In this document: positions 3,567 through 46,088 of the stretch, in pieces
Layout of the letters: each line of letters begins with the position of its first letter
How positions within the stretch are numbered: the first letter of the stretch is position 1
Source: Rotaria socialis
Lineage: Eukaryota
Assembly (NCBI GenBank): GCA_905331295.1
Contig: CAJNYD010000035.1
Coordinates: 310,001-374,000 of the forward strand
DNA: 64,000 nucleotides
Reading direction: 5' to 3'
The notes under the pieces: generated by a model
What the model saw: only the letters and a program-made list of their open reading frames with translations
The model's database searches: none
What the model was told of the DNA's origin: nothing
Program-made: the position numbers and the translations under genes

Positions 3567-5621
3567 TTTTTCTGTCACTGTCAATGGATCATTTCCATTC
3601 ATTTTTTTGTAAAAACAAAACGGTCAGTAAACACAATATCAAGTCTGAAGTAAAAATCTATCAATTCCATTCTTTTCACCGAATACTTATGTTACTATTT
3701 ACTGACCATCTCTTAGACTGATAGATCATCGAAACCATTTGTACGAACGAAACTAATGTTTAAATTGTTCATGCTTTCTTTGATTACGATATATATAATA
3801 GAGGCTTATTACTAATATCTTTTAGATCTACTGAGCTTAACAAATTTTAGTAGAGATATTCTGAAACAAAGCGGACATTGTATATATATATATATATTAT
3901 AATAAAAATTTCATTGCCTGAATATAAATTTCTTTCTTATTGAAACGCTAAAATTGCTCAACTGCAAAATAACAGTTATGACTGCTTATTTATTAACTTC
4001 TACTAATTGCTATGCGCTAGTTTGCATTGAAATTTGAATTTTTGAAGTACAGCCTCAAAGTATGATGGGAAATAGCACACTCATATTGCTCAACCAAGCA
4101 AAAACATAAAAGCATGTAAGCGTGAAACATATTTCTATGCATAAATAACTCAATTATATATAGAATATTAAACGTATAGAAAAATCGTGTATCATTTCGA
4201 CCAATTCAGCCATTGCTACATTTTCATATAATCAAAATTTCTCTAAATAGAAAGAGCTTATTTATTTTTACTTTTATGTTCTATTTTATTCTTTTATTTC
4301 TTCTGATAAAATACTTTCATAAATTACTATGTCTGTTATTGTATAAAAATTACAAAAATTAGAAGTAAGAAAATACTATGACAGAAGGGTCATACTTTTC
4401 ACATTAAAATGCATTTAATACATTCATCTTTCATCAATAGCTCGGTTTTCTTGTTTGTTTTTATTGCAAGTTGAAAACGTCAATAATTAGGCAGTTTTTG
4501 CTGATCATTTACATAATAATGAATAGTTCACACAAACATCAGCTTTACTATGAAGCAACAAGATTGCATGCATTCTAATTGTGCTTCACTAGGTATACCG
4601 ATGGGATGGAATAGAATAGAATAGAATTGAATTGTCGAAGTCCGTGGGCTTTTAACAATTTATTCAGATTATTTTAGCAATTGAAAATTCTGATGTATTT
4701 CTGAAGAAAATAACTTCGATATTGTTGTGCGAGCGTGAGCGATATCTAAGCAATGTTGTCGACATCTTTAAATGAATAAATTATGATTAAAATAATCAAG
4801 CAAATAGAGCTACCAGTAATAATTTGAAGATAAATCATACCGAGCTAAAACATGATATTGATACGATCCATCAGAGGTATATATATATATCTGACTGATT
4901 TGAGCGAAACTGAATGAAATCTTCATTTTTATCAAGGTACTGCAAACCGACTATCATTTTACAATAGACCTAGAATTCTTATTTTTATGAAAAATTATCG
5001 CAATGACATAGAAGTCTATTAGTGTCTTACTTTTAATTAAACTTGAATGGTAAAGTTTTTTCTTTTCGAGAGAATGATTTTTGCTCTTAAAAATAATTTG
5101 TACCATGATTGTTCCAAAAAATCTCGTGAAAAGGAAACAACGTACAAAATTAAAGATATGCTGAAACAATATTTTAAGTTTTTGCACATATCAATGATAA
5201 AGTATTTTGTATAAAATATTATCTAACACATATTATTTTACTTGATATTTTTGAGTGTGTATGCAACGAGGATGTGAACATCATCTATACTAGGGTGTGG
5301 GTGTTCTGGTCTCTCTTCACACCCACACCCTCAAGAAATGACAAAGCCAGATCTATGTACCATCTCATCATTGAAATGATTTAGACAGAATCCATTTTTA
5401 ATTACCACAAACACAATGGAATAGAAGAAGAAAAAATAACGCAATTTATAAAATATTCAAAAATTGGATGCTCATTGATAGGTTACTTTTTCTCAATAAA
5501 ATTGAAATTTTATCCATACGAAAGTCAGTGTTCAAGTGTAAGATGCTTTTGAGAAATAATATTTTTTTATCTATAACTCCCAAGGAAGATAACAAAAGTA
5601 GTGATGGACACAAAAATAATG

Positions 5622-5806
5622 AAAACTAGATGGTATTCGAGTTTCACTCGACTACGAAATGCGGTGCGAAGCACACGAGCCGAATTTGCGAAAGCAGCAA
5701 GAATAAGATTTAAAAATAAATGATTCACTTTAAGATTCATTACAAACGTTTATTTTTTTTTAATTTCCGTATACGAATTTTGAATAAAAATTTCGCATTC
5801 ACTATT
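5622..5806 (-). mobile_element. 3' end of a related HINE-like element, running into the scaffold gap
   Basis: Reverse complement reads TGCTTCGCACCGCATTTCGTAGTCGAGTGAAACTCGAATACCATCTAGTTTT, nearly identical to 3518-3569. Confidence 0.65.
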
Positions 5807-6045
5807 NNNNNNNNNNNNNNNNNNNNNNNNNNNNNNNNNNNNNNNNNNNNNNNNNNNNNNNNNNNNNNNNNNNNNNNNNNNNNNNNNNNNNNNNNNNNNN
5901 NNNNNNGACCGTTGGTTTTTACGCTGTAAAGTCGCTAAAATGGCTTAAATAACCGCGGTTAACCGACGGTTTTCGATCGGTTTGTACGACATGGGTATAC
6001 AGCCACATTTTCTTTAATGTACTGATTATCGATCAAGTATTCGTC

Positions 6046-7277
6046 AATATCGTACAAACGTTTGTATTCTATGATTACTGGTATCTGTAACATATAAATT
6101 TAGTTGACTGTCAAGTTTTACAGACCAGGGTCCACATAACAAAGTAGAATTATTGCCGCATATACCTGAAACTCCAACAACAGTTATTGCTTCTGTTTGT
6201 CAGCTCATAAATAATTGTATTCGATGATTAGCTCTATCGGCAACGTAAATGTTACCCATACAATCCAAACTGACGTCCATCGGGCCATTTAACGTTGTTT
6301 TCATTGTTTCCAGAAATTCCATTGGCATCCGCAGCTAGTAATGACTAGCTATCACCACCCAGCGGCCAGCGAACGATGTTACTGGTTGCATAATTTACAA
6401 TAATTAAACTGTTCGAGAACGAATTGTAATAAACACGAAGTGGGCCTCGCAACTGTGTAATGTTTATTCCGTTACCATTCCCATCGGCCACTAAAATACC
6501 TGATCATGCTCCTGATGCGTAGAACATAACTCTACTATTGCCATAGTCTGCTATGTATAGTGAATCGGAAGTTGCATCAAATGCGATTCCATAGGGATTC
6601 ATAGATTAATTGCTCAAATTACCCATGTTACCTAAAATAAACATTCTAAAGAGGTTTTCGTGATAAAATCTTAATTTTATCAAATTAATTGAAACATTAG
6701 ATTCGAAGTATTGAATAATATGTAGTTTAGTCTAGCCGTATCAGATTCTGACGCTTATTCTATTCTCGAAGATTTATAGTTCTTTTTTCATGGAAAACTT
6801 TTGTCCATCTCGAGTTTTGTATCTTATTTCGCTGGTAGCTCGATCTAAACGAAATATTTTTTGCATATCAGATAAATCAAAAAAGCATTGGTTCATCATC
6901 AGAACAGCTTTCCTTGACGAAGGCTTTTCTGGAATAGAATTGTCAACATTATATAGGTGAAGCAATGAGCCTCACGAAAATAGTGCAAAATGAATATTTC
7001 TCATCAAACTATTTTATAACTGCCCAATACTTCCAATGGTAATTCCAGATGATGAGCCATTATAGAACAATGGAATTCCATGGTTTCCTGTATCGGCCAC
7101 ACAAAGGTCTCCATTCGAATCAACCAACGCCTGTGAGGGATTCCTCAACTGGGTGGAAAATGAACCAGATGTTCCACTTTCACAGACTGTTGTACTAATT
7201 CAAGAGCTCATCGCATATTTTTGAATGCGGTTATTGCCGGTACCAGTGACATACAGTGTATTTTGATAACCTACTGT
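6046..7277 (-). pseudogene. NHL-repeat (beta-propeller) protein pseudogene
   Basis: Manual minus-strand translation gives NHL repeats: TLYVTGTGNNRIQKY, LVDSNGDLCVADTGNH, PYGIAFDATSDSLYIADYGNSRVM, LDSQLNLYVTDTSNHRIQTF; several in-frame stops; 5' side abuts repeats at ~7280. Confidence 0.8.
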
Positions 7278-7321
7278 GGCACTCTCTGAAAAACCGTTTC
7301 TGAGAGGGTTTCTGAGAACTT

Positions 7322-7582
7322 CCCAGGAGGATCATCCTGCCGTCTGAAACACCATCGGAAACGGCTATAAAACGACAAAAAACAGCATTAATTTTCACCC
7401 TATTTCGCCGTAATCCGTCAGCTCGTTTTACGGGCCGTTTTTGTTTTGCTAGAAAACAGCCATCGCTTTTAACACTATTCTCTTCGTTTTCCGAGCTGAC
7501 GGAAAACGGCGCCGTCTTTTAACGTTTTACATCGTTTTTGTGCCGTTTCAGGCCGTTTACGGGCCGTTTTCTTTCACCTGGG
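7322..7582. mobile_element. MITE with CCCAGG...CCTGGG termini, apparently nested in a larger inverted-repeat element (~7280-7730)
   Basis: Termini CCCAGG (7322) / CCTGGG (7582), internal CCGTTT/AAACGG motifs as in the 22710 copy; outer AGGGTTTCTGAGAA (~7305) is inverted to TTCTCAGAAACCCT (~7715). Confidence 0.55.
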
Positions 7583-8525
7583 TTCAAGCGTTTTCAAAAA
7601 TACGCTTTTCATTTCCGAGACCTCGAAAACCCTCAGGTTTTCAACAATACCGATTTCGATGCCCTTAACGTATTCTACAAAACCTTTTCCCTGGTGCTTG
7701 AAACCAAACCATATTCTCAGAAACCCTTATGGTATTCTAGGAAACTAATATTACCAGAAAAACCTGACTTAGTATCCGAAAAATCGCGGATAAAGGACCA
7801 TTCGAAGCTTGCTCATTTTAATTTTTAGTACATGTGTATATGTACTTTCTTTTAATATGATTAACTGAAAAGTTAAGTTCTTGTTGAGAAAAAATAAATA
7901 AATAAATTTTGTATCAAGACTTTGCGCCAATGGTTATTCATTTGAATTAATCATATACTAATTTGTTTTTGCAATCGAAATGAATTGCAAATGCGTTTAA
8001 TTCTATATTCTCGCAATTCTTGATTATTCATCATGAAAGCGTATCAGTTCGGCTTCTGTCAACTTATTTCATAGAAATCTCATTATTTCCCTGTTTTAAC
8101 TAGTACTTCTGTTCTCTTTTGGCCTACGTATTCATGACTGTACCAATGATCATTATGATGCCTATCAGTATTAACTCGATCTTATTTTGAATTTCGCGTA
8201 GCTCATTTAATCATATCCAAACGTTTATTAGCATGAAATGAAAGCAGAATGCAAGTATTTGAAGTGCGAAAAATCTTCTTGAAAATTCAAACATACCAGC
8301 TTAACTATGATTCGTTTAGTTTACCTGTCAATCACAGGAAAGAAAAGTATAGGTGAATGATGGTAAAATAAGGACTACGATTCGATTCATTCATTGCGTC
8401 TCTATGGAAAGTATTAGCCTTGTTATTTTTCACTCACACGTGTTGAAGGACGCTTTCTGTAATGAATTTAATTAGTATTTTATAGGTGAATGCGTTCGGT
8501 TAAGATGTGTTTTAATTTATTTAGA

Positions 8526-9221
8526 ATGAAACCTAAAGATTCGTCCATTCATACTCGCGATAGCATTAAGTACTCAACTGACAAAACAGAAGATAAGGTA
8601 TGCTACAAAATTCAGTTCTATATCATTAAAGATTTTTAAAAAAATTCTTACTTTATTGAACAATAGAAAAATTAGATTTTCATGTGTAATATATTTTTTC
8701 ATATTCAGATTCACAAATTTATGACAAAACAAATTTCACTTGATGACGTCAGAGGTCTTCGTGTAGTCAATGATAAACCCATTCGTCTACTTTTCCTAGC
8801 TGAAGCTACTTCAAATGTTGGTGTTATTGTCTTTGTCTTTCTTTATCCATCATTATTCCTTTCAATTTTTCTTCAACCCCAAAACGAAATAACTCCATTG
8901 GCTTCTTTTCTCATTTTTTTATGGAATTCATGGATTATAGTTATCACTGGTTTGATGTATGCTGCGGTGCCATCAAGATATAATACGCCAACGTTAACAG
9001 CTGGTATTGTGCATGTTCGTCGTTTTATCTATTGGGCTTTATTGAGCAGTGAAATACTACTTGCTGTACTATTAATCTGCACTGTCCATCGAACGACTCT
9101 CTCAGTAGGTTTTGCAAATTTTATATTATTTGTAGCCATGGGTCGAGTTTTTGTCCTTTTCCCGAAGAAAGCCTGGTTTGGCACTGTTGTGTTCGAGTCG
9201 ATGGCAGAAAAAGAAAAATGA
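8526..9221 (+). CDS. Uncharacterised multi-pass membrane protein (~195 aa, about four hydrophobic segments); exons 8526-8597 and 8709-9221
   Basis: ATG 8526, 24 codons, donor GTATGC 8598, acceptor ttcag 8708 joins in phase 0 to the 179-aa ORF; hydrophobic stretches such as VGVIVFVFLYPSLFLSIFL, LASFLIFLWNSWIIVITGLMYAAV, FIYWALLSSEILLAVLLIC. Confidence 0.7.
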
Positions 9222-9353
9222 CGATTGATAAACTATATTATTGTTTTCAGTTTAATAGAATTTTAGACAAACATATAAATAACACTCAGTGATTTAATGT
9301 CTTTTTATTATTTCTTTCTAAAAAAAAAGCTTACATATAAATGTATGTTAAAA

Positions 9354-10276
9354 TTAATTCATTTTCTTTGCGAGCTCTTTACATTTCCATAAATCCCACC
9401 AAGGTGCATATGGCCATCGATGATGTTCCCAATGATAATCAAAATGATAGCAACATAAAAAACTAACTAATCGATTTGCACTAGCTGATCTTGATTTTTC
9501 CCATGGCATCGCTTCGTCATATTTACCGTCGACTAACTCTGGCCGATGTGGAGTGTAAGTACCAAAATAAAATAAACGTAATGAACTACATAATCCACAT
9601 ATTAACATGTAGACAATAATATTCAGCAATGGAACAGAAAATACTACTTGAAGAGTAGTGACCCATACGGTCATTTTGTATAGCTGTTGTTTAGTAGTGT
9701 ATCCAATTAGAAAATGAGTATACCAAGCAAAAAATCCTATACACCGACCATCGTGATAATCAGGATCTTCATTGGCAAGACCAGTATGCTTATGATGTAG
9801 CCAATGTTTTTCATACATAATCCGATAATCAAACCAAGCATACGCAGACAAACATACATGACCGATAACATCATTTAATTGTCGATACTAAAATTCGATA
9901 TATTAAAAGGAGTTAAATTAGAAATTTGACCGTCTTATTGAGATAATAATACGAGACTTTCTACTCAATGTTGTTAACCTATATTATCTATCAATTTACC
10001 CTACACATTATTACTTAGTTCACTCACACGATTGCAAATTGCTCCATGCATAGCATCATGGCCAGCAATAAACAGGCCGGTGTATAAAAATTCCAAAATC
10101 AAAAATGTTCCGATGATATCGTACCAACTTGTTTTTGTAAAATTAATTTGAAATAAAGCATGATACCAACATAGAATAAAAGAACTGAGAATAAATAAAG
10201 CAATTATTAAGCCCTTAAAGTAATTTTTTGGTGGACAATAAAGTAATTTATAATCGTCAGTACTTTCACTTATCAT
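9354..10276 (-). CDS. crtW: Beta-carotene ketolase (CrtW/BKT, membrane di-iron desaturase superfamily), 260 aa; exons 10276-10028 and 9887-9354
   Basis: A 140-nt phase-0 intron (GTGAGT...TTTTAG) joins the two ORFs. Three His boxes HDAMH, HWLHH, HWEHH plus family motifs LYTGLFI, DPDYH, RLFYFGTYxPH, SFLCCYHFDYHWEHHRWPYAPWW. Confidence 0.93.
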
Positions 10277-10978
10277 CGTAAGCCAATGCTAAATATTATG
10301 CAAGGTTTACCGACAACATCTTTATCTTATATTTACTCAACTACAGCCGAGAACATATTCATGCCGCCATGTTTTTTTTTTGTCGAAGATTTGCTCGCTT
10401 CTTACAGCCATTTTGTTAGTACTACTAGTAAATTCAGAGCAGCTTGGTCGAGTTCGATGAAATTTTCTCGAATTTCTGAAAATCGTAAATAGATATAAAA
10501 AAAACATAGATAAAGAAACTATTTGACAGATGCCACTCTGAAAAAAACAATTTTCATTAGAATTTCGATCAAAAACGTTATTTTTTTAAAATTCTAATCG
10601 CAAAGAATTCTGATCATGAATTCCAATTCCACGTGCATTTACGTGAACGTGAAGTAAAGAACGCACGAGACACATAGTACTTTAGAAAAAAAAATATCAC
10701 CCTCCTAATTCGCGTGCATTGCGGCTTAATTTCTAGTGATAGTAATTCAACGTAGTAACAAATAATGTTGTCACAATGAGAAAAATCGAATTGATAGTCG
10801 AATTTCCAAGTTTTGCGCAGTAATGTTAAAATACGAAGAATGTTTGTATCTGGCGCCATCTACAAGTGTTGTTATCTGATTCGATTATCTCAAACGACCG
10901 TCCATGAAGCAAGTTTCTTTATTTCTATTGAATGATTTCTTCTTGCATAAGTTTGTCTATCTGTCATCTGCTACGATT

Positions 10979-12892
10979 ATGATCGATATAGACGAGGGCT
11001 TTTTCAAAGCACCATCGCTCTCAACGGCTGGTGCCATCAGTGTACGAAATGCGAAAGGACAATTGGTCACACAAAAAGTCAAAGTTCATCGATATGTTGC
11101 TGGAAAACGGTACATACTTGTTTTTTGTTTTGTTTATTTTATTCAGAAGATTATATATCTTTAGACCAGATTATGCTGAGGGTGTACATGTCAGTGATGA
11201 CGAAGAAGACGATAGAAAAGAACACAAATTGAAACATGACCATGTGAAATCATCTGCACGTAAATAAATTTATTTCAAAAATGAATTATTCAACTTATAC
11301 TTTATATTATTTTTTTAGTTAATCGTATCGAACAAGAAGATCGTCGTATTCGCCGTTTGCAAGGACGAGAAGAAATTCATGATGATGATCGGTATGATTT
11401 AGTTTGAAAAATGAAGAAAATTATATTTTGAGAAAATAAATCTCATTTTAGACTCAGTCGACATCGACGTATCATCGAGCCTGAAGTTTTAGAACAGAGT
11501 TCCGACGAAGAGATCGAACAGCAAGAGGACGAAGACGACGACGAAGGTGAACGAATGGATGAGGATGATAATGTTACGTCTACTCGAGTTAAAATGGAAA
11601 TTGAATCATCTGATGATGACGAAGAACTCGATGAAGAACAAATCGAACGACGTCGACAAAGATTACGCTTGAAAGCAAAAGTGAAAGAAGAAGTACAATA
11701 ATAGACAAAAGAAAAAAAGAATGGTATTTTTTTAAAGATTTTATTTATTTTCTAGGAATTACTGCAAGTTGAAGATGAAAAAGAACCGGAACAAGACGAA
11801 CTTGAAGCATCGGAAGAATCCGAAAGTGAAGAAGACGATGAAGAGGAAGAAGATGATGATGATGGTGTACCAAGATTGAAGCCTGTTTTCGTTCGAAAGT
11901 AAGTTTTATAGAAGAACAACTTCCGATCTACATGTAGATATTCTCATAAATAATTTTGAAGTTCAAGCTCTTGATGCATTGCTAGGATTTATTTATTTTT
12001 ATTCATAGAACTGATCGTCGTACAGTTGCTGAACGTGAAGCTGAAGAAAAACACCAATTACAATTAGAAATAGAAAAGAAACGTCTTGCTGATCAAAGAA
12101 AAATGCAGACACAAAAGGTAAAACTTAGAAGAAAAAAAATTAGATTGCCTCTATGCTGAAATTTTATAGATCGTTGAAGAAGCCATTCGACAAGAGCGAT
12201 TGAAAGAAAAAGAGACTGACGATGGCATTGAATGTGATTTTAATACAGATGATGAAGATGGTGAAACTGCTTATGATGCATGGAAGTTACGTGAACTTAA
12301 ACGATTGAAACGTGATCGTGAAGAACGTGATCAGTAAGTCAAAATTGAAAAGAGAAAGCAAATCATTTCGTTTCTTTTTCTATTCAAGACGTGAACGCGA
12401 AAAACAAGAACTTGAACGCTGGCATAACATGACAGAAGAAGAACGTGAAGCCGAATTAAAAAAGAATCCGAAAATTATTGACAACAAAGTGCCGAAAGCG
12501 AAATACAAATTTTTACAAAAATACTATCATCGTGGTGCATTCTTTATGGTTAGTTCTCGCTGTTTAATTCGTTTAGAAAAATTCTTCGTTATTTTTATTT
12601 TTTGTTTTTTTAGGATAAAGATGAAGATATACTCAAACGCGATTACAGTTCACCGACACTTGAAGATCATTTTGATAAAACCGTTCTACCGAAAGTTATG
12701 CAAGTGAAAAATTTTGGTATGGCTGGACGTACCAAATATACGCATTTGGTCGATCAAGATACCACAATATTCGAATCACCGTGGGCATCGGATAAACAAT
12801 CAACTAAAAAGTTTTTTCAAGAACATGGCGGCGGCCTGAAACAAGTTTTTGAACGACCTAAACTTAAAAATACTTCGAAAAAAAATCATTAA
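10979..12892 (+). CDS. MFAP1: Microfibrillar-associated protein 1 (spliceosomal B-complex factor), multi-exon
   Basis: N-terminal [13 protein letters not shown]...[50 protein letters not shown]-terminal [21 protein letters not shown]; exons separated by short GT-AG introns. Confidence 0.95.
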
Positions 12893-12960
12893 ATAAAAGA
12901 GAAAAATATTTCCTTTTTTTGTTCTCCTGTCTATATATTGTCGTTTGTGATTTTTTTCAG

Positions 12961-13902
12961 ATGGGTAAATCAACAAAAGATAAACGAGATATTTATTATC
13001 GTCTGGCAAAAGAACAAGGCCTTCGAGCTCGATCAGCTTTTAAACTTTTACAGATTAACAGTGAATTTAATATTTTAAATGACAATGTGAAACGAGTTGT
13101 GGATCTTTGTGCTGCACCTGGTATGATGAATTTATTTTTAGAAGTAGTCCCGTGAATCCTTTAGTTTACCCTTATAGGAAGTTGGTCTCAAGTTCTTTCT
13201 CGAACTTTATACAAAACTGATTCAGTTGATGATCAAGTTAAAATCGTTGCTGTCGATTTGCAAACCATGGCTCCATTGCCTGGTGTTATACAAATTAAAG
13301 GTGATATAACGAAACGTTCAACAATCGAAGAAATTCTTGGTTGCTTCAAAACATCCGATAATCAAATGAATAAAGCCGATCTTGTTATATGTGATGGTGC
13401 ACCTGATGTAACAGGTTTACATGATATTGATGAGTTCGTTCAAGGGAATCTTGTTCTAGCTGCATTAAATATTTGTCTTCATGTTTTAAATGATAATGGT
13501 AATTTTGTATCGAAAATATTTCGTACAAAAAATATCGATCTACTTTATCAACAATTCAAATTATTTTTCGATGATGTTGTTATTGCTAAACCGCGTTCAT
13601 CAAGAAATTCATCTATTGAATCATTTATTGTTTGTCGACAATTTCATTTGCCGGATGATTTTACTCCGAATATAGACGAACCATTTATTTATGCCTACGA
13701 ACGCACATTAGATAAACAAGAAAATTCATCATTTATAATTCCATTTATTGCATGCGGCAGTTTAGATGGTTTTGATTCTGATAAAACCTATCCGCTAGAA
13801 CAAGATCAATCCTATATTGAACCAGTTCAACCGCCCATTCACCCAGCCTATGAAGAAGCTTGTGCTTTGAAAAAAAATAAAAAACTCCCAACATCTTCTT
13901 GA
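12961..13902 (+). CDS. FTSJ1: tRNA (C32/G34)-2'-O-methyltransferase Trm7/FTSJ1; one intron at ~13122-13177
   Basis: [84 protein letters not shown]. Confidence 0.96.
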
Positions 13903-13958
13903 TGATTGTTTTTCTTTGTTTGTGATCGAACGGTGTTTTTTCTCAATTTTCAGATAAA

Positions 13959-15183
13959 ATGAATGCACGATCACAAACATTTGAATTTGCAGTCGAAGGT
14001 CGACAAATAGACGAAGTTGTTTCTTGTATGTTTCATAGTATTTTATTTCATCGTTGTGTTGGAAAGGTTTGTTAGCAGTTTTTATTTATAAATGAAATTA
14101 CTCTTTGCTTTTCTTTTTTTTTCAAGTATCATACAAACGGTGAAGATAGTTATTCAGTTGGAACTTTAGGCTATACTGATGTCGACTGTGATTATATTGA
14201 TTTTACATATGTAAGCATTCTAAGCGTCCAATCATTACCTTCAGCGCTCAATTGCATACGTCGGAAGCAGAGCTACCAACTGTAATCTCGTTGAGTAAAC
14301 CTAATTCCATTGTATTGTTTCAATGATTAGCTTGCAATAAAATTGGCATCTCTTCGTGTTGATTGACTGCCATCACAATCTGTCTAAAACTAAATCAATC
14401 GACTATTTTCATAATGCTGCTTGTACAGAATATCTTATAATTTTCTTTGATTCCTATATCAGCTCGTTCGATAATAACATATTCTGAATTATCTGCAATG
14501 TTTTAGCTACAAGTAACTAGTCAAGAACTTCAACGTACTGTCGCTGAAAAGATTAATCAATTCCATGATAAACTTCGTTCGTCAGAGTCAAATCGCAGTG
14601 GACAGGTAATTGAAAAACGAAGGGAAAGCGCCGATTTCAAAACTTGTTTTTTCGAATAGATTACCCTGGAGTTTTATCAGAAGAAAAAATCTCGCTGGAT
14701 GTTTAAACCAGAAGAGATTCCATGGGAAATATGGACTATTAAAATTGAACAAATGCAATTATCCAGTGAAAATGGTATTTTTTTTTCGTTGATCTATGTG
14801 AAGATTTTCGAACTGTTTTTTTTTAGAACGACAATTTATGCGTGAAAAACTTTCTGATTCACTTACAGAACGTATTTTTCAAATAACTGAAATAATGTAA
14901 GAAAATAATTTCTTGAAACTTCTTCAACTAATGCATTATTTTTTGTTTTCAAGTAATAAACCTGATTATGTACCTAAACCACCTCATTTATCTGAACTCG
15001 ATTTAGTTTTTGATACATCATATACTGATATTCAACCATATTTATTTAAAGTAACTTACAATAATAAAATGCGAGTGTCGTTATTTTATTTCTCTTTTTT
15101 TCTAGATTCATTTTAGTGATTCACCAACCATTGTCAACCACATGAAAACAATGATTAAAGAAGCATTCAATACATCCCTCTAA
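13959..15183 (+). CDS. ATG101: Autophagy-related protein 101 (HORMA domain), multi-exon
   Basis: [112 protein letters not shown] 15181-15183. Confidence 0.93.
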
Positions 15184-15365
15184 ATAATCAATGAAAAAGC
15201 AAACCGCCATGATTATAAATACGTATATCATAACTTAATTTTCATTGTACTTCATTCTTTTTTTTTGCGATGTGTATATAAATATAAAATCTATATAAAT
15301 TTTTTCGAAGTCTTTTGTTTTCTCTTATCAAAGTTAACTGATTTTTCTTGAAATTTTAGATAATC

Positions 15366-16084
15366 ATGTTTCATCGTTCATCAAATTTCAATCGACTAAT
15401 CGTTGGATCCAATCAAATCATTCAGCCAATACGTGTGCGTACGTTGTTCAATAATGTTTTCCTTGTTGTTAATACTTTGTTTTTCTTATCCTTGTTGTCT
15501 ACTTTAGCGTGCTCGTATACCGTTTTGGGAATTTTTAAAAACAGCATTTCAAGCACGCTCAAATCCCGAAGCTAGCAATCACAGAAAACGTATTGGCGGT
15601 TTTCAACCGATGAAAGTTGAACTTCTGCCTAATCGAACATACTATTGGTGTTCATGCGGTTATGCACATCATCAAGTAAAAATCTCAATTTGCTCGTTTT
15701 CATTCTTTTTTGTAATGGTAAATAATGTCTCTATTGAAGGCTCTTTGCGATCAAGCATGTAAACAGTTGAGAGGCAATTTACGTCCATTAAAATTTACTT
15801 CATCAAAATTTCAAGTGGCTGAATTATGTATGTGTAAATCGACAGAGAGAGCTCCGTATTGTGATCAATCATGTCGCACTCGTTTTGTTGGTATGCAAAT
15901 GCGTATGGGCAATTCTGTCGAAGGAACATATTCGAATGTAAAAGAATTTCTTAATACAATACCGAAAGGTATTGATAATTATCGACAATTTGCTGCTGAT
16001 CGACAAGCTAAACTTGAACATACAGAACGTTTAAGAAAAAAAGTTGATGACGAAAAAAATAAAAAATTTTCTGAAGAAACATAA
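15366..16084 (+). CDS. CISD3/MiNT-like protein with two CDGSH-type Fe-S motifs, both His-to-Cys variants; exons 15366-15434, 15508-15675, 15740-16084
   Basis: Arg/Ser-rich acid-free N-terminus; PMKVELLPNRTYYWCSCGYAHHQ|ALCDQAC, linker LRPLKF, then LCMCKSTERAPYCDQSC; spacing C-x-C-x8-C-x3-[C] matches CDGSH domains. Confidence 0.85.
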
Positions 16085-16165
16085 ATCGATGAATGTTTTA
16101 TAAATAGAATTGATTATTTTTAGATGAACTAGTTTTTCTTTTATGAATCGTCAACATTCGAAATC

Positions 16166-17328
16166 ATGACAGATCGAAAGTAGGGACAACAAATTAAGGG
16201 GGAATTATTGTTTTTGATTTATTTTCCTTTAGAGCAAAACGATCACGCGTAATTCTTAATGATGGAACATGGGACTGCTCATTGTGTACATATAAAAATC
16301 CATGTGTAGCATTTCGATGTGAAATGTGTGATTCAAGAAAAGGAACAGCTACTCGGTAGGATACCGCAAAATATTAATATGATTCAGAGAGAAGTTTCCG
16401 TTTTTTATCCCTTGGAATACTCGGTGTTGTTGAAAAAAGAAAGCTGACAATGTTTGTTTTTTATGTATGCATTTAGAAAACCAAAACTTGTATTAAGCGG
16501 GCATGTTGAGCAATTGCCAAGATCGAAACGTAAAACCGATGACGATTATTCTTCTGATCCATCGACAACTGATGATACAGATGGTCAAGATGATGACGAC
16601 GATGATGATGAAGAATTCCAACACGAAGAACGTAAAAATATTCATTCGAATAATAATAATAATAATCATACACGACGATCATTTCCGAATGATCATTTCA
16701 ATGAAAGTATATCATCTCCAGCATCATCTACAACAACAACACGATCCTATCGGTCCGCTTCACCATCGTCATCATCAAAAATAAACGATCCTTCGAAAAT
16801 ATCAACAACTAAGAAACGACCAACCATTGGCTCATTATCCCGCTCAACCAAATCAATATCAATACCAATAACTAATAAAAAGCCTAATCATGAAAATGAC
16901 CAGAAAAAAATCATCAAACATCAATCATCAAAATCGAAAGATCCTAAACAAAGGCAATCGAACGATAATAATCAAAAAATTAAAGTAACGAGCAATGAAC
17001 GAAATAAGAAAAATGATGTACAGAAAAAAAAGTAAATTATAATTTTATTAAGTATTTCATTGGTAAATTGAATTTCATCTTTAGAAAAAAAATTAAACTA
17101 TCATCACTTTCGTCCATGTCGTCGTCGTCATCAACATCATCAAATTCGTCATCAACGCATACAACAACAACAATAACAGTTGATGGAGTTTCAGTTCGTA
17201 TTACGGAATTAGTTAACAATAAAAACGATTCCTTGACAACAAATGACACTTTTAATAATGGCAATAATCCATCAAGAGCTTCGTCATCATCACCAGCTGA
17301 TCAAAGTCGAAGTCAATCGGAAAAATAG
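16166..17328 (+). CDS. RYBP: RYBP/YAF2 family protein (RanBP2-type zinc finger; non-canonical PRC1 subunit)
   Basis: Exon 16233-16355 encodes WDCSLCTYKNPCVAFRCEMCDSRKGTATR|KPK; last exon has TITVDGVSVRITE resembling the RING1B-binding C-terminal hairpin; long low-complexity middle. RYBP versus YAF2 orthology cannot be resolved. Confidence 0.88.
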
Positions 17329-19246
17329 ACATTTTCTACTATATTGTTTTCTTTTTTTGTACAGGTTATAACAATGATCAAATATCTCTTTGTATGTGTA
17401 AATGTCTGAGCAAAAAAAAATTGTTTTTTTTTGATAGGCTAGTTTGTTTTTGTGTGCAACGGGCAAATTACATTCTTCTTAAAGAATTATCATTAAAATT
17501 TGTTATAAATTGAATCATTGTTGCTTTTCTATTGTTCATTCAACATCTAGAATAGATACAACGGCAGTCTTTTGAGATATAATGCTACACATTTCTGAGC
17601 TGATCAGCAATGCGACCGGTTCGGTTCCAAATACTGGGAACTGATTTCATCTAAATATAAATTCGAATATATTTGTAAACCTGTTCATTTAAAGTGAATG
17701 AAAAAATGATAGCACATTTTTATGGCTTACTCAACTGTTTCATAGATCTTCAGCGACGAGCAATAGTTTTGCTCATCATTCAGTATATACTTTTACAGAC
17801 AATCTTTTAGTAGTAAGTGCAAAACTTTCAAGTTTAGCCAGTCATAGTGATTATTACTTTTTAAACTGTAAGAAACGAAATGAAATTAAAAATTTTGACA
17901 TTCTTTATATCTTGTAGGACTACACTTTCATTTTGAATAGATACGCTTTCCGTCATTATTACAATATTACTTTCAAGTGCTCCATCACTCCGAAATGATA
18001 AAGTAACCAAGTGCATAACAAACGCGGAAAAGCGTAACATATATAAATTATTTATTGAAGCCTAGGCTATATGATATTTTCACAGAACGTCACTCAAAGA
18101 ATAAGAACCTACTAGTTAAAACAAATTGTGTTCTTTGCACTCAATGACGAACGAAAATGTAGCGAATCGTTCTTGACTGACAGAAAAAGTGGATACATAT
18201 CCACTGAACATACGCTGCAAGCATTTCAATGGAACGATATTTCTAAAATAAAAGCGAAATACGTATGCTTTTAACTTTATCTGCAGCTCAGTATTCTGAG
18301 TCTCTCTTAGAACTATAGAAAGTGTTATAATAATGTCTTCAATAAGTTGTTCCAAGTGAATATTCCAAGGAATATTCATAAAAACGACGAGAAATGGATA
18401 CTTTTCTCTGTATTATTTAATTGGTGGTTTGGTTCGGTTCCAGAAAAACAACAAACCGATCCTATCACTAGAACTAATATGCGTAGGAAGTTATCGGAGC
18501 ACAGAAGTTCTTTTTCATCTTTCAGAGGTCCTTTTTCATTTAAGTGCAATCGCGAACGTTACTTGAGGCGCTCGTATGAATATAGTAAATTACCACAATA
18601 GAAGTTTTTGTTTTGATTTGACGAGAAATCTTATCAAATGGCAAATATCTGTATAGTTTACCTTTCGATAAAAGAGAAGTTATATATGTGGTGAGAGAGC
18701 ACTGAATGGCATATAAATAATAAAGCAATTCTATGTGAAGTAATTTCTTTCAATACCCCTTATAAGATCTACCAGGATCTACTAGGATGCCAAGAAAATA
18801 CCCGCATCCACCTCACACCCAAAATCAGGACAGCTCGGTTGACTGCTTGTCGGAAATTTTCATTTTCTACAGCAGAGCACGATAGTATTCCTACTTTTAT
18901 TCTTAATAAAGTCAGTGAAGTATTTGGAAGATTGTTGTAGAAGATAGATAATCATAGTCCAATCAATGTATGCTCTTTTGTCTCCCTCTTAACGATTATT
19001 CTATCCTTGCTATCGTCAATTCATATTTTGAATTCCATCTAAATGGCATGCAACCGTACATGTCTTACTTGGGTAAAAGACAGGTATTTGCACTCTCAAA
19101 AACAAGAAAGACACATCATTTGATTGCTTCATAACATAGATAAGTGATTGACTTTTGCAAGGAAATGGCCAATCAAGCATCGATAAGAACTATTGAATGA
19201 TATTTATTTGCCAAGATTTGTATTCTAAAAGGTAAACTGTCTAATC

Positions 19247-30830: not shown

Positions 30831-33800
30831 TTATTGTTTTTTCGTTATATAATTTATTTGAAGTCCATCAGGATAAATATATAGTGGTATTGATCGAACG
30901 CCTTTGTTAAGCTGTGGTTCTGTTGTTTTTATGAGAAGATATTCTTTTATTATTAATTTATATTTGTGTCTTTCTCTCAATCTGATTTGAAAGTTATGGT
31001 TATCAAACATGTGCCCGGTAGTAAGATAGTGTTTCACTATAGAAGATTTAGCTGTATTCTGTTGTGGCTGCTTTTCTTTTATTTCACAATTTTTTAATAG
31101 TGCGTCAATGTCTTCTTGGTTCATTATAATATTTGGCTTTGGAATTTACTGGTCTGTAATCTAGTAATCGGTCCTTTGCGTTCAATATTGGGTTTAAATA
31201 TGGATGGTTTTATTTTTGAGGTACGTTTTGATTTCTTAACTTTTTTCACACATAAATCGTTTTTTTGATCATTAATATGTTCATGTACACGTGTCTTAAG
31301 ATGTCTAAATGTTTTACCAATATATTTTATGCTACATTCTGGGCAAGTGGCTTCATAAACAACTCCTGATTGCATGTTTTCTGGAATTGGATCTTTCAAG
31401 GTAAAACTATCACCAACTCGTTCTTGAACATCATAGACAACTCTTATTTGTTTTAATGGATAATTCTTGGTAATAGTTGAGGTGATACGCTTTGTATAGA
31501 CTTGACTTAATGGTCCAAAATAAGGTATTCGAAGAACAACAGTATCAATAGTGAGTGCCGGTGGTGTTATAGGAGTAGTAGACTCATACATAAGATTAAG
31601 TTGACGCCTAATAATCGAATCCAGCTTCGAATTAGGGTATCCATTTCGAATTGCTAATGATCTTATTGATTTAAATTCACGATGTAGAACATTATATGAG
31701 GAACAAATCGTAATAGCTCTATACACCATCGTTGACAATGCGTTATACTTATAAATTTTTGGTACGAAGCTGCTCCATTTAGTAATAAGACCCGTGAATG
31801 TTGGTTTTCTATAAACTCGTGTTTGAAAACCTTCACCTGATTTGCGTTGTACCAGTACATCAAGAAATGGGAGTTTGTGTGTATATCGATCTTCTTCTTC
31901 ATAACTAAATTTAATACATGGATGATACTGATACAGAATATAAGAAATGCCCTTAATAGGCACTTTTGAGTCTACTAATACAAAAGTATCATCAACGTAG
32001 CGTTTCCAATAAATAATACCCATTTGATTAAAAGATGATAAATGTTTTCTCTCAAAATCTTGAAGAAAAATCTCAGCCAAAAGTGGAGTCAAAGGAGATC
32101 CCATTGGTACTCCATCTATTTGATCATATAATTCTCCATCAAAAAGAAAATGAGATTGACTTGTTGCTGAATCGAGTAAATCTTTTATATCTGATCGATT
32201 CATTGAAGGAGGTTTAATATTGCCATCACATAACTGTTTAAGAATTATGCCTATTGTCTCATCGAGTGGTACATTAGTATATAGATAGGGGTGTCACATT
32301 TAAATTTAAAAAAATTTATTAAATCGGGAAATAAATTTTCAAAAATTTAAATTTAAAATAAATTAAATTTTTTTTAAATGAAAAGTTAAATTTAAAATAA
32401 ATTTTAACTGAAAAAATTTTAATTTAATTAGATTTTAAATTTTGCATCATTTAAATTTAACTAAATTTAAATTAAATTGTTTGAAATTCAAATTAGTTGA
32501 ATTTTGAAAACTAATAGATAAAAATAGTTTTTGACTTGATTGCTACTATTTAAAGTCAAATTTGAGTGTGTTTCCTGTTTTCTAAAGTTAAAACTAGCCA
32601 TTCTTCTATGAATTGTGCTATTAAATATATTTTTATGAGTATCCCAGTCTTCTGAAGAAGAAAGATGACGGACCCTGCATAATCTGTAGAGAAATTTTGA
32701 CTATTATGAATAAATATTAACCTAAAATACTAGGTTTTCCTCTCATTTAGTATTTACTACTGTTAAAGTCACGTATTTCTCTCGTAGCAATCATGTGTAT
32801 CCATCCAAATAATTTATTAAATTTAAAATTTAAATTTAAAAAAATTATTAAATCAAGAAATAAATTTTCAAAAATTTAATTTAAATTAAATTTAAATTCT
32901 GAAAATTTAAATTTTATTCAAATTTAAATTTTTGTATCAGAAAAATTCAAATTTATTTTAAATTTAACTTGATAGAATTTAATTTAAAATTAAATTAACT
33001 TTTCACGAAGTTAAATTTAAATTAAATAAACTGTCAATTGACACCCCTATATATAGACTAGCAATATCAAAAGATACCATCTTATATTGAGACATAGGCT
33101 TAGGTAATGCCAGTAATTCTTTAACGAACGACAATGAATCACGGATCATATTCTTTTTTTTATGATGTTTGACAATATTTGTAACAGAGCTTTAGAAAGT
33201 CCATAGTTGAACGTCCCGATTGCTGAGAGCACTGGTCTAAGTGGAACATCCTTTTTATGTGTTTTTGGTAATCCGTAAAGACGTCCAGGAATAGAACCAG
33301 TAGGCTTTGCCATTACCCAAAATTGATCGGAAATGTGTCCTTCATCATGTAACCTATTCAACAACTTTGTTAATTTAGTTTCACGGGTAATTGTAAGATC
33401 ATCTGACAGACATTTAAATTTACTAGAATCATTAAGTATAACATGGATCTTTGATAAATACTCGCCTTTATTTAATAAAACAATTCCTCTGCCTTTATCG
33501 GGACGAATAACAATAATCGACTTGTCTTGTTTTAATTTTCCTAATATATTACGATATTTTTGTTGTTCAGCATTGATCCTATTTTGTATTTGTCCGAAAT
33601 GATAAGCATGAGAACGAAATGAATCAGTAATTGAACGTAGACTATTTGCCAATGTCAATTCTTTTGAAGTAATAACACGAACATCAGAATCAACAATTGT
33701 ATTTTTTTCCTTAAGTTCAGAAAACAGCTTCTTATGATGTTGAGAAATATCAGTAACTCGATGGAAAAAATTTTCAATATTACTAATAATGTTAATATCA

Positions 33801-43562: not shown

Positions 43563-46088
43563 TTAAGAGTTAATATGTTCAACTATTGATTGATTTGGAG
43601 AATTTGTTAACAGATATTCATCACTAAGTGTACCATCAGAGAATAAATTCAAAGATCGACCCGATGTTTTATCAAATATCCAATGGGTTACTTGAAGACC
43701 ATCAAAATCATAAACAGGATTATTTTGATGATACTTAACCGGTTGTTTATTTTGAAACGCTTGAATAGGCCAACGTCGATCATCACCATAGATATGTCGT
43801 AATGCAATTCGTCGGATTCCAAGTTGTTTAGCAATCTGTAAATATTCTTCAATTTGATAAACATTGTCTTCGGTTAATACACATGAAAGTTTAATTGGAA
43901 CATTGGATGCTTCTCTTAAAATAGCTTTTAAATTTGGCATTTGCTTAACACCATGAAGTTTGTAATAAGTTGTAGGATGAAAAGAATTTACAGATATAGT
44001 ACATGAATCGTACATACGAAATGTTTTCATTTTTGGTATTGCTAATAAACCATTTGTATGTAATGATATATGAACATTTGGCAAATCTTGACGTAAACGG
44101 TTTACTAATTTCTCTTCATATTTATAAAGTTGAGGATCAGTTCTTGTACCTGTTAAAATTATTTTTGATGTTTGAGTTTTTTTCATCAAAGAAATAAATT
44201 CATCCAGATTTTCAAGTGTTTCTTTACGTAAATTATTTGGAGTTTCTAATAATTGATGTCCAATACAAAATGGACACTTTTGATTACATGATCCAGAAAA
44301 TAAAATATTGCCAAATTCAAATGGTTTGGATGTATCAACACGCGCTAATGATGAAAATGAACGACGAATTTGATTCAGCGACTGTTGACTTTGTTGTAAA
44401 GTAAGTGTCGAAGTTGTTAATGACGCTGGCGGTTTAGGCTCTGGTACATTTGTTGCTGCTGCTCGACGACGAACTGGTATTGTTGTATCTGGGATTGGTT
44501 GAAATGGACTTTGACCTTCTTTTAATGCTTGAACAGGATCTACTAGAAATTGTTCTCCACCTTGTAAATGTAAAATATGATTTTTCACGGCTGGTGAATA
44601 AAACAGAGCTACAACACCACCGAAACATTGTTTACCAAGACTTGTCATTTGTAAGCGTTGTTCGTCTTGATTGTATATCATTAAGCCATGATCTGTAACG
44701 AATTTAAATTCAGTAGGAAATAATTCTTGTAACGACGTCTTAAAACAATCTTCAAATGCAATAAGATCAATACCACCATAGTAGAAACTAACTGATGCCA
44801 TTTTAGCAATAGCTGCTTCTCGTGATAGATGATAAAGATCTTGAACTGGAATACGATTTAATTCGACACTACGAATATATTGTTGTAATTTCTTAGTAAC
44901 AGCACCTAAATTATACGATAATGTATGGTGACTGAATGATTGGGCACCAAGACCAATACCGATATAGGGTATAGCTTTTCTAACACGTTTATCCAAATAA
45001 TCAGAACATCCAGAATTACCTTGAACACGAGAAAATGTATTTTTTCCTGTTAATCCAATGTAATTAGATTGATTTAATAATTGTCTTGATTGACCTTCTT
45101 GACGATTAATTTGATCGAGTTTAACACGATCAGCTAAATGTGCCATCAATGTACCTTTATATCTCATACGATATAAAGTTATATGTTCAGGTTGAAGATC
45201 AATTGTATCTTGAACAGTTTTTAACCATGGGTCATCGGTACGTGATGCACGTAATGGAAATCCATACATTAAATCAATGTTAAAACTTTTAAAACCTGCA
45301 TTACGAATATTTGTCACTGCTTGATAGATATAATCTGTCGATGCATTAGCATCATCACGATTCATGTCTTTTGCTTGACGAAAATCTGTTGTTTGTAAAC
45401 CCATTGATATACGACGAATACCCATATCGTAATATGCTTTCATTTTTTCAGGTTCGGCTGCAGCTATCTTTGGTGTTGTCTCAATGGATACTTCAGTTAG
45501 ATTCCAATTAGTTTGAAATTTCGATTCAACATGTTTCATTAATTTTTGAATATGTTCTATTTTAGCCATAGATGGTGTTCCACCACCAATATCAAATCCG
45601 ACTAGTTTTTTTGCTTTTGTATTTAATAAATTTGCATACATATCTAATTCGGTGTATAGTGCAGAGAAATAATTTGTTTGTATATCAACATTTTTGCCTT
45701 GTTTTGGATTGACAACTGTATATTCACAAAATTGACAGCGTGTTTGACAAAAAGGCACATGAGCATAGAGCATCATCTCTGGTAATGAACCGTAAGCTCC
45801 ATAATAGGCTGCTTGAATATCTTGTTGATCTCGAAGTCTTTTTACTCGATAAGGTCGAATAGTAGTGTTGTGAGCGATTGGAAATGCTGTATTACATATA
45901 TGATGATGTCGCATTCCTGCACGGAAAACATCGTCAGCTGCGTACTGTTTTTGATCGTCTTCAGTTGGTTGTTGCCATGTAAATGAAGAGGATTCTGTAG
46001 ATATAGACAATGAATGAAACTTTAAAGTAGAGATTGCTGTTGATTTAAGGAACCGATGTGAAAGATGGTGACCCGCAGTTGATAACAT
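43563..46088 (-). CDS. Intronless tandem radical SAM protein: HemN/HemW-like domain fused to a second radical SAM domain, 841 aa
   Basis: Domain 1: YAHVPFCQTRCQFC, DIGGGTPS, RISMGLQT, NIDLMYGFP, YIGIGLGAQS. Pro/Thr/Gln-rich linker. Domain 2: NILFSGSCNQKCPFCIG, LTGTRTDP, SLHTNGLL, ISVNSF. Two CxxxCxxC motifs. Confidence 0.92.
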   Translation of the reverse strand: MLSTAGHHLSHRFLKSTAISTLKFHSLSISTESSSFTWQQPTEDDQKQYAADDVFRAGMRHHHICNTAFPIAHNTTIRPYRVKRLRDQQDIQAAYYGAYGSLPEMMLYAHVPFCQTRCQFCEYTVVNPKQGKNVDIQTNYFSALYTELDMYANLLNTKAKKLVGFDIGGGTPSMAKIEHIQKLMKHVESKFQTNWNLTEVSIETTPKIAAAEPEKMKAYYDMGIRRISMGLQTTDFRQAKDMNRDDANASTDYIYQAVTNIRNAGFKSFNIDLMYGFPLRASRTDDPWLKTVQDTIDLQPEHITLYRMRYKGTLMAHLADRVKLDQINRQEGQSRQLLNQSNYIGLTGKNTFSRVQGNSGCSDYLDKRVRKAIPYIGIGLGAQSFSHHTLSYNLGAVTKKLQQYIRSVELNRIPVQDLYHLSREAAIAKMASVSFYYGGIDLIAFEDCFKTSLQELFPTEFKFVTDHGLMIYNQDEQRLQMTSLGKQCFGGVVALFYSPAVKNHILHLQGGEQFLVDPVQALKEGQSPFQPIPDTTIPVRRRAAATNVPEPKPPASLTTSTLTLQQSQQSLNQIRRSFSSLARVDTSKPFEFGNILFSGSCNQKCPFCIGHQLLETPNNLRKETLENLDEFISLMKKTQTSKIILTGTRTDPQLYKYEEKLVNRLRQDLPNVHISLHTNGLLAIPKMKTFRMYDSCTISVNSFHPTTYYKLHGVKQMPNLKAILREASNVPIKLSCVLTEDNVYQIEEYLQIAKQLGIRRIALRHIYGDDRRWPIQAFQNKQPVKYHQNNPVYDFDGLQVTHWIFDKTSGRSLNLFSDGTLSDEYLLTNSPNQSIVEHINS

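What the first reader, a model, noticed from the sequence alone, without database searches (positions are those of the whole stretch)
9354..10276. Intron-containing CrtW/BKT beta-carotene ketolase embedded among animal genes
Seen: two exons splice into an intact 260-aa protein with all three His boxes, 702 bp head-to-head with MFAP1. Known: CrtW/BKT makes canthaxanthin/astaxanthin in bacteria and green algae, whereas characterised animal ketolation uses cytochrome P450s (e.g. CYP2J19 with BDH1L). From memory, segments such as RQLND.IG.VC.S.YAWFDY, MPWEKSRS.SA..LVSFL.CYHFD and HRWP.APWW follow chlorophyte BKT (Haematococcus/Chlamydomonas) more closely than bacterial CrtW. Inference: a horizontally acquired, domesticated ketolase lacking a plastid transit peptide that lets the animal convert dietary carotenoids to ketocarotenoids (red pigment, oxidative or desiccation protection).
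Basis: partly seen in the sequence, partly recalled or inferred. Interest (0 to 1): 0.9.

Follow-up and report, generated by a model that had tools for sequence, protein, structure and literature searches.

The report
Algal red-pigment enzyme in bdelloid rotifers
Bdelloid rotifers, microscopic freshwater animals, carry in their own chromosomes a spliced gene of the green-algal beta-carotene ketolase family, likely gained by one ancient gene transfer, that would let them turn yellow dietary carotenoids into orange-red, likely protective pigments with an enzyme type unlike the cytochrome P450s described for this job in animals.

Summary
Observation confirmed. Two exons (10276-10028, 9887-9354) splice to a 260-aa protein identical to an NCBI Rotaria socialis protein. 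The junction is in contigs of two RNA-like runs, and single DNA contigs from two runs span ketolase and MFAP1. Orthologues occur in Rotaria, Adineta and Didymodactylos. Intron position and head-to-head pairing with MFAP1 recur in divergent metagenome loci. Trees put all rotifer copies in one clade inside the eukaryotic BKT clade (100/100), whose other named members are chlorophytes; a cyanobacterial sister is rejected, but nesting within green algae is not shown. Ketolase activity is inferred, not shown. Wild bdelloids contain echinenone that was undetected in their biofilm (PMC3779155), but no canthaxanthin was listed and they select cyanobacteria as food. The gene is not unseen: a 2015 supplement lists it as a foreign 'beta-carotene_ketolase' in four Rotaria species, without discussion. 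Verdict: a real, old, domesticated transfer; a known enzyme family in an animal host; the obvious candidate for bdelloid ketocarotenoids, cheap to test.

The parts
10028..10276 (-). Ketolase exon 1 (aa 1-83): short N-terminus with the Y.PP motif, first two predicted membrane helices, His box 1
   Evidence: RNA-like contig covers 10028-10240
9888..10027 (-). 140-bp GT..AG phase-0 intron
   Evidence: junction in X9 and X13 contigs; same donor and acceptor codon position in L001-L003, L004, L008, acceptor in L005
9354..9887 (-). Ketolase exon 2 (aa 84-260 and stop)
10046..10060 (-). His box 1, HDAMH (aa 73-77)
   Evidence: H73 and H77 invariant in 144 aligned sequences; coordinates computed from the exon start
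9792..9806 (-). His box 2, HWLHH (aa 111-115)
   Evidence: H111, H114, H115 invariant
9420..9434 (-). His box 3, HWEHH (aa 235-239)
   Evidence: H235, H238, H239 invariant
9546..9548 (-). Further invariant His197
10277..10978 (.). 702-bp head-to-head interval, likely a shared promoter; 192 bp in L002 and 223 bp in L008
   Evidence: distances read from the printed intervals
10848..10862 (-). 15-bp non-coding motif kept (14 of 15) in L002 and L008; core resembles a YY1 site (label recalled)
   Evidence: read by eye
10321..10330 (-). ATAAGATAA element upstream of the ketolase ATG, also in L002, L004, L008
   Evidence: read by eye
10979..12892 (+). MFAP1, nine exons, 464 aa; host gene that anchors the locus
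8721..9221 (+). Convergent neighbour: hydrophobic protein of about 166 aa with no Pfam family; its poly(A) end at 9357 overlaps the ketolase stop codon
13165..13902 (+). FtsJ-family methyltransferase, next in the conserved gene order

Best explanation
This is a spliced chromosomal gene of a bdelloid rotifer that encodes a BKT/CrtW-family protein, likely acquired once from a green alga or a close algal-type donor before the sequenced bdelloid genera split, and predicted to add keto groups at C4 of dietary beta-carotene. Shown: intact two-exon frame, splicing, physical linkage and conserved order with host genes, host-like GC3, one rotifer clade inside the BKT clade. Inferred from family knowledge: a membrane di-iron oxygenase whose three His boxes hold the metals, using O2 and host-supplied electrons. 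Inferred: it works on ER or lipid-droplet membranes, as the active cytosolic pool of Haematococcus BKT does, so the missing N-terminal extension costs nothing. Inferred: the main product is echinenone, with canthaxanthin or ketolated xanthophylls possible; the pigments would be stored in gut and egg lipid and act as UV screen and antioxidant.
For: Identity to NCBI P0121. Junction and linkage. Orthologues at 56-91% in R. magnacalcarata, R. sordida, R. sp. Silwood1 and 2, Adineta steineri, A. vaga (18-Mb contig), A. ricciae and Didymodactylos carnosus. Of 10 rotifer-like metagenome loci (of 34 returned), 4 show MFAP1 head-to-head (3 of them, L001-L003, encode one identical protein, so 2 distinct lineages) and 6 show the convergent neighbour. 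GC3 0.24 against 0.25 for MFAP1. dN/dS on exon 2 below 1 in 4 of 4 pairs (0.36, 0.37, 0.66, 0.08). All eight His-box histidines and H197 invariant in 144 sequences. Model pLDDT 95, best solved folds AlkB and SCD1 family. Named-only tree: rotifers plus chlorophytes 100/100, rotifers plus cyanobacteria rejected at p-AU 6e-8; same split. Of 9 columns that separate 21 chlorophyte from 80 bacterial proteins, rotifers have the algal state in 5, the bacterial in 1, neither in 3; the upstream W..[QHNDAE]Y.[LMV] motif is in 13 of 21 algae, 0 of 80 bacteria and 1 of 11 rotifers, Didymodactylos (motifs chosen after seeing the alignment). Echinenone 0.53-0.72 ug/mg in wild bdelloids, not detected in biofilm (PMC3779155). 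Active Haematococcus BKT reported cytosolic/ER (PMC11808291).
Against: No activity was measured. PMC3779155 lists no canthaxanthin or astaxanthin in the rotifers, did not test this gene, and shows selective feeding on cyanobacteria, which make echinenone themselves. The window's protein has Ala71 where 80 of 80 bacterial, 21 of 21 algal and 9 of 11 rotifer proteins have Thr, two residues before His box 1. One dN/dS pair is 0.66 and the method is crude for AT-rich DNA. It scores below the curated cut-off of the CrtW model (209.6 of 350), as do all three algal proteins scanned (182-195). The trees do not agree on its sister: inside chlorophyte sequences at weak support, outside a 90/94 algal-type clade, in a basal polytomy. 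Red colour of a Philodina fades in culture (PMC12559811), which fits dietary precursors but fits plain uptake of pigment equally. 3 of 5 RNA-like runs list no junction.
Confidence: 0.72

Rival explanations
1. The gene is real and old but its chemistry has shifted: it hydroxylates or desaturates another lipid or apocarotenoid, or the R. socialis copy is a weakened allele; rotifer echinenone comes from food or from a P450.
For: Long stem to the rotifer clade (0.43-0.70 changes per column); Ala71/Gly72 beside His box 1 and three diagnostic columns in neither state; relatives in this superfamily include CrtR and other hydroxylases; P450 ketolases are widespread in animals (PMC10608541 section 33).
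Against: 42-49% identity to 20 of 21 chlorophyte BKTs over the whole core; CrtW model 210 bits against 29 for CrtR; the protein lies inside a clade whose named members are annotated as ketolases; other rotifer copies keep Thr71.
Confidence: 0.22
2. Same function, other donor (a separate axis from function): the gene came not from a green alga but from an unsampled microbial eukaryote or a large DNA virus that carried a BKT-type gene.
For: Many unnamed, short, uninterrupted BKT-type proteins sit in the same clade (P0016, P0019, P0021, P0253-P0256, P0430-P0436); P0016 is the weak sister in two trees (77); chlorophyte monophyly is not rejected.
Against: Every named non-rotifer member of the clade is a chlorophyte, from two classes; the Didymodactylos copy keeps the chlorophyte N-terminal motif; three viral scans returned no locus (one stretch encoded a relative but gave no locus).
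Confidence: 0.3
3. Algal contamination or chimeric assembly.
For: Bdelloids eat algae; the Didymodactylos copy is on a short contig (6.9 kb).
Against: AT-rich gene with host GC3, even depth across the locus and single contigs spanning it in two runs, conserved order and intron in other lineages, orthologues in eight named species or isolates.
Confidence: 0.01

Closest known systems
Chlorophyte BKT (Haematococcus BKT/CRTW, Chlamydomonas BKT, Chromochloris BKT1, Protosiphon BKT)
   Same: Same clade (100/100), 42-49% identity, same His boxes, shared WFDY, HNHTG-type, RLFY and HFDYHWEHHRWP segments.
   Different: No N-terminal extension (30-90 aa shorter) and no long C-terminal tail; animal host; own intron (not at the positions seen in the four algal loci L028-L031); GC3 0.24; activity untested.
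Bacterial CrtW (NCBIfam NF045690; EC 1.14.99.63 per PMC10608541)
   Same: Same length class, fold family and His boxes; best NCBIfam hit.
Animal carotenoid ketolases: CYP2J19 with BDH1L, CYP2AE2, CYP384A1, CYP3A80
   Same: Same predicted outcome, C4 ketolation of dietary carotenoids.
   Different: Unrelated heme P450s (PMC10608541 section 33 part 1); this is a non-heme His-box enzyme of foreign origin.
Fungal carotenoid genes transferred to aphids, spider mites and gall midges
   Same: Horizontal gain of carotenoid chemistry by an animal (cited in PMC4632278 and PMC7310846).
   Different: Those give de novo synthesis from a fungal donor; this is one tailoring step from an algal-type donor.
Foreign 'beta-carotene_ketolase' transcripts in the supplement of PMC4632278 (rows 11658-11662)
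   Same: Five transcripts of one orthogroup in four Rotaria species, taxon columns 'plants' then 'eubacteria'; very likely this gene (inferred; I did not see their sequences).
   Different: An automatic annotation only: 'ketolase' and 'carotene' occur 0 times in the main text; no tree, synteny, other genera or link to pigment there for this gene that I saw.

Membership tests
CrtW/BKT beta-carotene ketolases | Three His boxes of the membrane non-heme di-iron superfamily | tested here: met
CrtW/BKT beta-carotene ketolases | FA_desaturase domain and desaturase/AlkB-type helical membrane fold | tested here: met
   PF00487 74.6 bits; model pLDDT 95; AlkB E 9e-4, SCD1 weaker; no solved CrtW among hits
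CrtW/BKT beta-carotene ketolases | Closer to CrtW than to CrtR hydroxylases or fatty-acid desaturases | tested here: met
   209.6 vs 29.2 vs 22.5 bits; no CrtR or desaturase rows were put in the trees
CrtW/BKT beta-carotene ketolases | Converts beta-carotene to echinenone/canthaxanthin | not testable with these tools
   needs heterologous expression and HPLC
Eukaryotic BKT clade | Groups with chlorophyte BKT apart from bacterial CrtW | tested here: met
   100/100; 100/99; 100 SH-aLRT
Eukaryotic BKT clade | Nested within chlorophyte sequences (direct green-algal donor) | tested here: inconclusive
   p-AU 0.45 and 0.25 for chlorophyte monophyly; trees disagree
NCBIfam equivalog NF045690 (bacterial CrtW) | Score at or above 350 bits | tested here: not met
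   209.6 bits; algal BKTs 182-195, two bacterial proteins 316 and 346 also below
Domesticated horizontally transferred gene | Linked to host genes, spliceosomal intron, transcribed, ameliorated, conserved across relatives | tested here: met
   transcription rests on spliced contigs of runs guessed to be RNA
Domesticated horizontally transferred gene | Absent from other animals | tested here: inconclusive
   no named non-bdelloid animal among listed rows (120 of 236; 115 of 115; 120 of 2575); most rows are unnamed and the searches need shared words

The most novel reading that the evidence does not exclude
Bdelloid rotifers make their own ketocarotenoids with a green-algal BKT taken up once by their common ancestor: the first animal lineage to ketolate carotenoids with a non-heme di-iron enzyme instead of a P450, and the genetic basis of the orange-red pigment that protects them and their eggs from UV and oxidative stress.
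Probability: 0.5. Interest if true: 0.75.

Novelty: new member of a known kind. Interest (0 to 1): 0.6.

Why it matters
Carotenoid conversion in bdelloids has been suspected since 1962 (as cited in PMC3779155); that paper proposed beta-carotene to echinenone conversion without a gene, and a 2025 paper asks which pigments underlie UVB protection in a red bdelloid (PMC12559811). This gene makes the question testable with one standard assay. If active, it adds a second, unrelated route to animal ketocarotenoids, gives a clear case of an alga-type gene serving an animal stress trait, and supplies compact, extension-free ketolases already adapted to an animal cell. Surprise is tempered because bdelloids hold many foreign genes and this one was catalogued in 2015.

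Tried and rejected
No whole genome is held, so copy number and other carotenoid genes (hydroxylase, synthase, P450s) in this animal were not searched. The careful mixture-model tree on 70 rows did not finish in two runs; the quick tree was used and three LG+G4 trees were built on other subsets (48, 57, 29 rows), chosen by hand from several hundred hits; no CrtR or desaturase outgroup. Viral scans with P0021, A3 and P0431 gave no locus. No listed holder is on record as RNA; contig depth was not used to rank expression. Idea that the intron was inherited from the alga: four algal loci (L028-L031) have introns elsewhere; not supported, too few loci to exclude. PDB sequence search: only AlkB. An earlier count said MFAP1 carries a spliced leader; one search lists leader-like ends only at 8523/8707 and 12958/12959 (the neighbour and the FtsJ gene), so that note is wrong. 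Earlier findings: none. Paper searches that found no study of this gene: rotifer+ketolase+carotenoid+horizontal 0; bdelloid+ketolase 2, on Arthrospira and Deinococcus by title; bdelloid+carotenoid 72, 30 listed; rotifer+echinenone 20; crtW+HGT+metazoan+ketolase 1; Adineta+carotene 7; Philodina terms 9; bioRxiv 79, 15 listed, none with 'bdelloid'. The library lacks most subscription papers; supplements of the bdelloid genome papers and of preprints were not searched, and file 1 of PMC3499245 was not searched; they may name the gene. A mutagenesis paper on CrtW residues was not held, so residue roles rest on conservation and general knowledge.

Full report
1. Observation. The minus strand holds two frames, 10276-10028 and 9887-9354, joined by a 140-bp GT..AG intron into a 260-aa protein. 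That protein is letter for letter P0121, an NCBI protein of the bdelloid rotifer Rotaria socialis. Contigs of two runs guessed to be RNA (X9, X13) skip exactly 9888-10027; three other RNA-like runs list no such joint (tables cut). I did not establish whether these runs are independent of published transcriptomes. Single DNA contigs cover 8505-13100 (X7) and 7880-17500 (X8) at even depth, so the link to MFAP1 is not a product of this assembly. MFAP1 starts at 10979, 702 bp away.

2. What it is. Best family hit is CrtW (209.6 bits; CrtR 29.2; DesB 22.5), below the 350-bit cut-off, as are the algal BKTs scanned. The eight His-box histidines and His197 are invariant in 144 aligned relatives. The AlphaFold model is confident (pLDDT 95) and matches AlkB/SCD-type membrane di-iron enzymes; no solved CrtW turned up.

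3. Distribution and age. Top hits are bdelloids: R. magnacalcarata 91%, R. sordida and Silwood isolates 71-75%, Adineta steineri, vaga and ricciae 60-67%, a second Silwood2 copy 63%, Didymodactylos 56%. No named non-bdelloid animal is among the listed rows (120 of 236, 115 of 115, 120 of 2575), but most rows lack names. Of 34 metagenome loci, 10 are rotifer-like. Four have MFAP1 head-to-head (L001-L003 are one protein, L008 another), two of them also the FtsJ gene next in line, and six have the same convergent neighbour. The intron sits at the same codon boundary wherever both ends were visible. GC3 equals that of MFAP1, and dN/dS on exon 2 is 0.36, 0.37, 0.66 and 0.08 in four pairs (crude, last one near saturation). 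In the named-only tree Didymodactylos branches first and Rotaria and Adineta form clades, as expected for vertical descent after one gain (that Didymodactylos is the deepest of these genera is recalled); in the other trees it pairs with the Silwood2 second copy.

4. Donor. All four trees separate rotifer plus chlorophyte sequences from bacterial CrtW with full support. Rotifers with cyanobacteria is rejected (p-AU 6e-8); chlorophytes as a clade without rotifers is not (0.45; Chlorophyceae alone 0.25). Rotifers share the algal state at 5 of 9 diagnostic columns and the bacterial at 1; the Didymodactylos copy keeps an upstream motif found in 13 of 21 algae and 0 of 80 bacteria (motifs picked after viewing the alignment). 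So the donor carried an algal-type BKT; a green alga is likeliest (about 0.7), but many unnamed short relatives leave room for another eukaryote or a virus (viral scans blank).

5. How it likely works. Shown: gene, splicing, linkage, conservation. Inferred from the family: O2-dependent C4 ketolation of beta-ionone rings at a His-bound di-iron site. Inferred location: ER or lipid droplets. PMC11808291 (passages) reports that only the cytosolic Haematococcus BKT was active in vitro and that ketolation occurs at the ER, while the Chlamydomonas N-terminus can target the plastid; loss of the extension therefore suits an animal cell. Inferred product: echinenone at least. PMC3779155 (passages and Results section) found echinenone and two echinenone-like pigments in wild bdelloids and not in their biofilm, and proposed conversion of beta-carotene. 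Against: no canthaxanthin or astaxanthin is listed there, the animals select cyanobacteria that contain echinenone, and the window's protein has an unusual Ala71 beside His box 1. PMC12559811 (passages) links red colour, passed to eggs and lost in culture, to UVB survival and leaves the pigments unidentified. A protective role is thus a second inference on top of the first.

6. Comparison with what is known. It is a member of the BKT clade by every sequence test run, except activity, which cannot be tested here; it is not a member of the bacterial NCBIfam equivalog by score. Animal ketolases in the review PMC10608541 (passages; section 33 part 1 of 2; first 300,000 of 659,249 characters held) are all P450s and 'rotifer' does not occur in the held text. 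PMC11808291's BKT tree sampled algae and bacteria, with no mention of rotifers in the main text. PMC4632278 lists five 'beta-carotene_ketolase' transcripts from four Rotaria species as foreign in its supplement and never mentions them in the text. PMC3499245 reports enrichment of foreign 'carotenoid biosynthesis' EC numbers in A. ricciae without naming a ketolase in the text or the 9 files searched. PMC7310846 (passages) found no carotenoid synthesis genes among transfer candidates in an acanthocephalan. PMC7730656 (passages) added nothing. All other papers were seen as search listings only. Nine searches found no study of the gene; the library is incomplete and most bdelloid genome supplements were not read.

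7. Verdict. Real, old, domesticated transfer of a BKT-type gene into bdelloid rotifers; ketolase function likely (0.72). Known enzyme kind, previously catalogued but, as far as these searches reach, not studied.

Noticed in passing
window 43563-46091 (-): Uninterrupted 842-aa frame with two radical-SAM domains, HemN-like then MoaA-like, all below curated NCBIfam cut-offs; N-terminus looks like a mitochondrial presequence by eye. Possibly another foreign gene, and an unusual fusion.
   Followed up: no
window 31124-32293 (-): Reverse transcriptase plus GIY-YIG matches, both below Pfam cut-off: Penelope-like element (label recalled).
   Followed up: no
window 55535-56584 (-): Weak ADP-ribosyltransferase match (E 5.5e-4) directly followed by TPR repeats.
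   Followed up: no
window 8721-9357 (+): Hydrophobic protein with no Pfam family, 62-71% identical and tail-to-tail with the ketolase in 6 metagenome loci, absent from that place in L002. Its transcript has a leader-like 5' end and a poly(A) end at 9357, so it overlaps the ketolase stop codon and 3' UTR in antisense.
   Followed up: partly
window 10848-10862 and 10321-10330: Two non-coding motifs kept in the head-to-head interval of lineages whose ketolases are only about 60% identical; the interval is about 480 bp longer here.
   Followed up: partly
window 10061-10066 (aa 71-72): Ala-Gly where nearly all relatives have Thr-(Cys/Thr/Ala/Ser), just before His box 1.
   Followed up: partly
window about 5417-6250 and 7085-7918: High-copy repeats: summed depth 1,700-16,000 against about 60 in run X8.
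   Followed up: no
P0430-P0436: Clade of compact, uninterrupted BKT-type proteins from metagenome contigs up to 290 kb, next to Trebouxia BKT; possibly large DNA viruses with a ketolase. Viral scan gave no locus.
   Followed up: partly
P0260, P0437, P0444: Unnamed metagenome proteins that fuse phytoene synthase (PF00494) to a CrtW-type domain.
   Followed up: no
L002 114-2057: Uninterrupted glutathionylspermidine synthase/amidase (CHAP + GSP_synth) 6 kb from the ketolase on a rotifer-like contig.
   Followed up: no
P0011 cluster; PMC4632278 supplement rows 11659-11660: Rotaria sp. Silwood2 has a second, divergent copy (63% to the window's). Match coordinates in the supplement imply an intron of about 2.8 kb in R. 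magnacalcarata against 140 bp here.
   Followed up: no
PMC4632278 supplement row 14138: One R. socialis transcript annotated as fungal-type phytoene/beta-carotene synthase, with no match in the R. magnacalcarata draft: weak, may be contamination; bears on de novo synthesis.
   Followed up: no
L029/L030 8001-11049: Two BKT-type genes in tandem on a GC-rich, alga-like contig.
   Followed up: no
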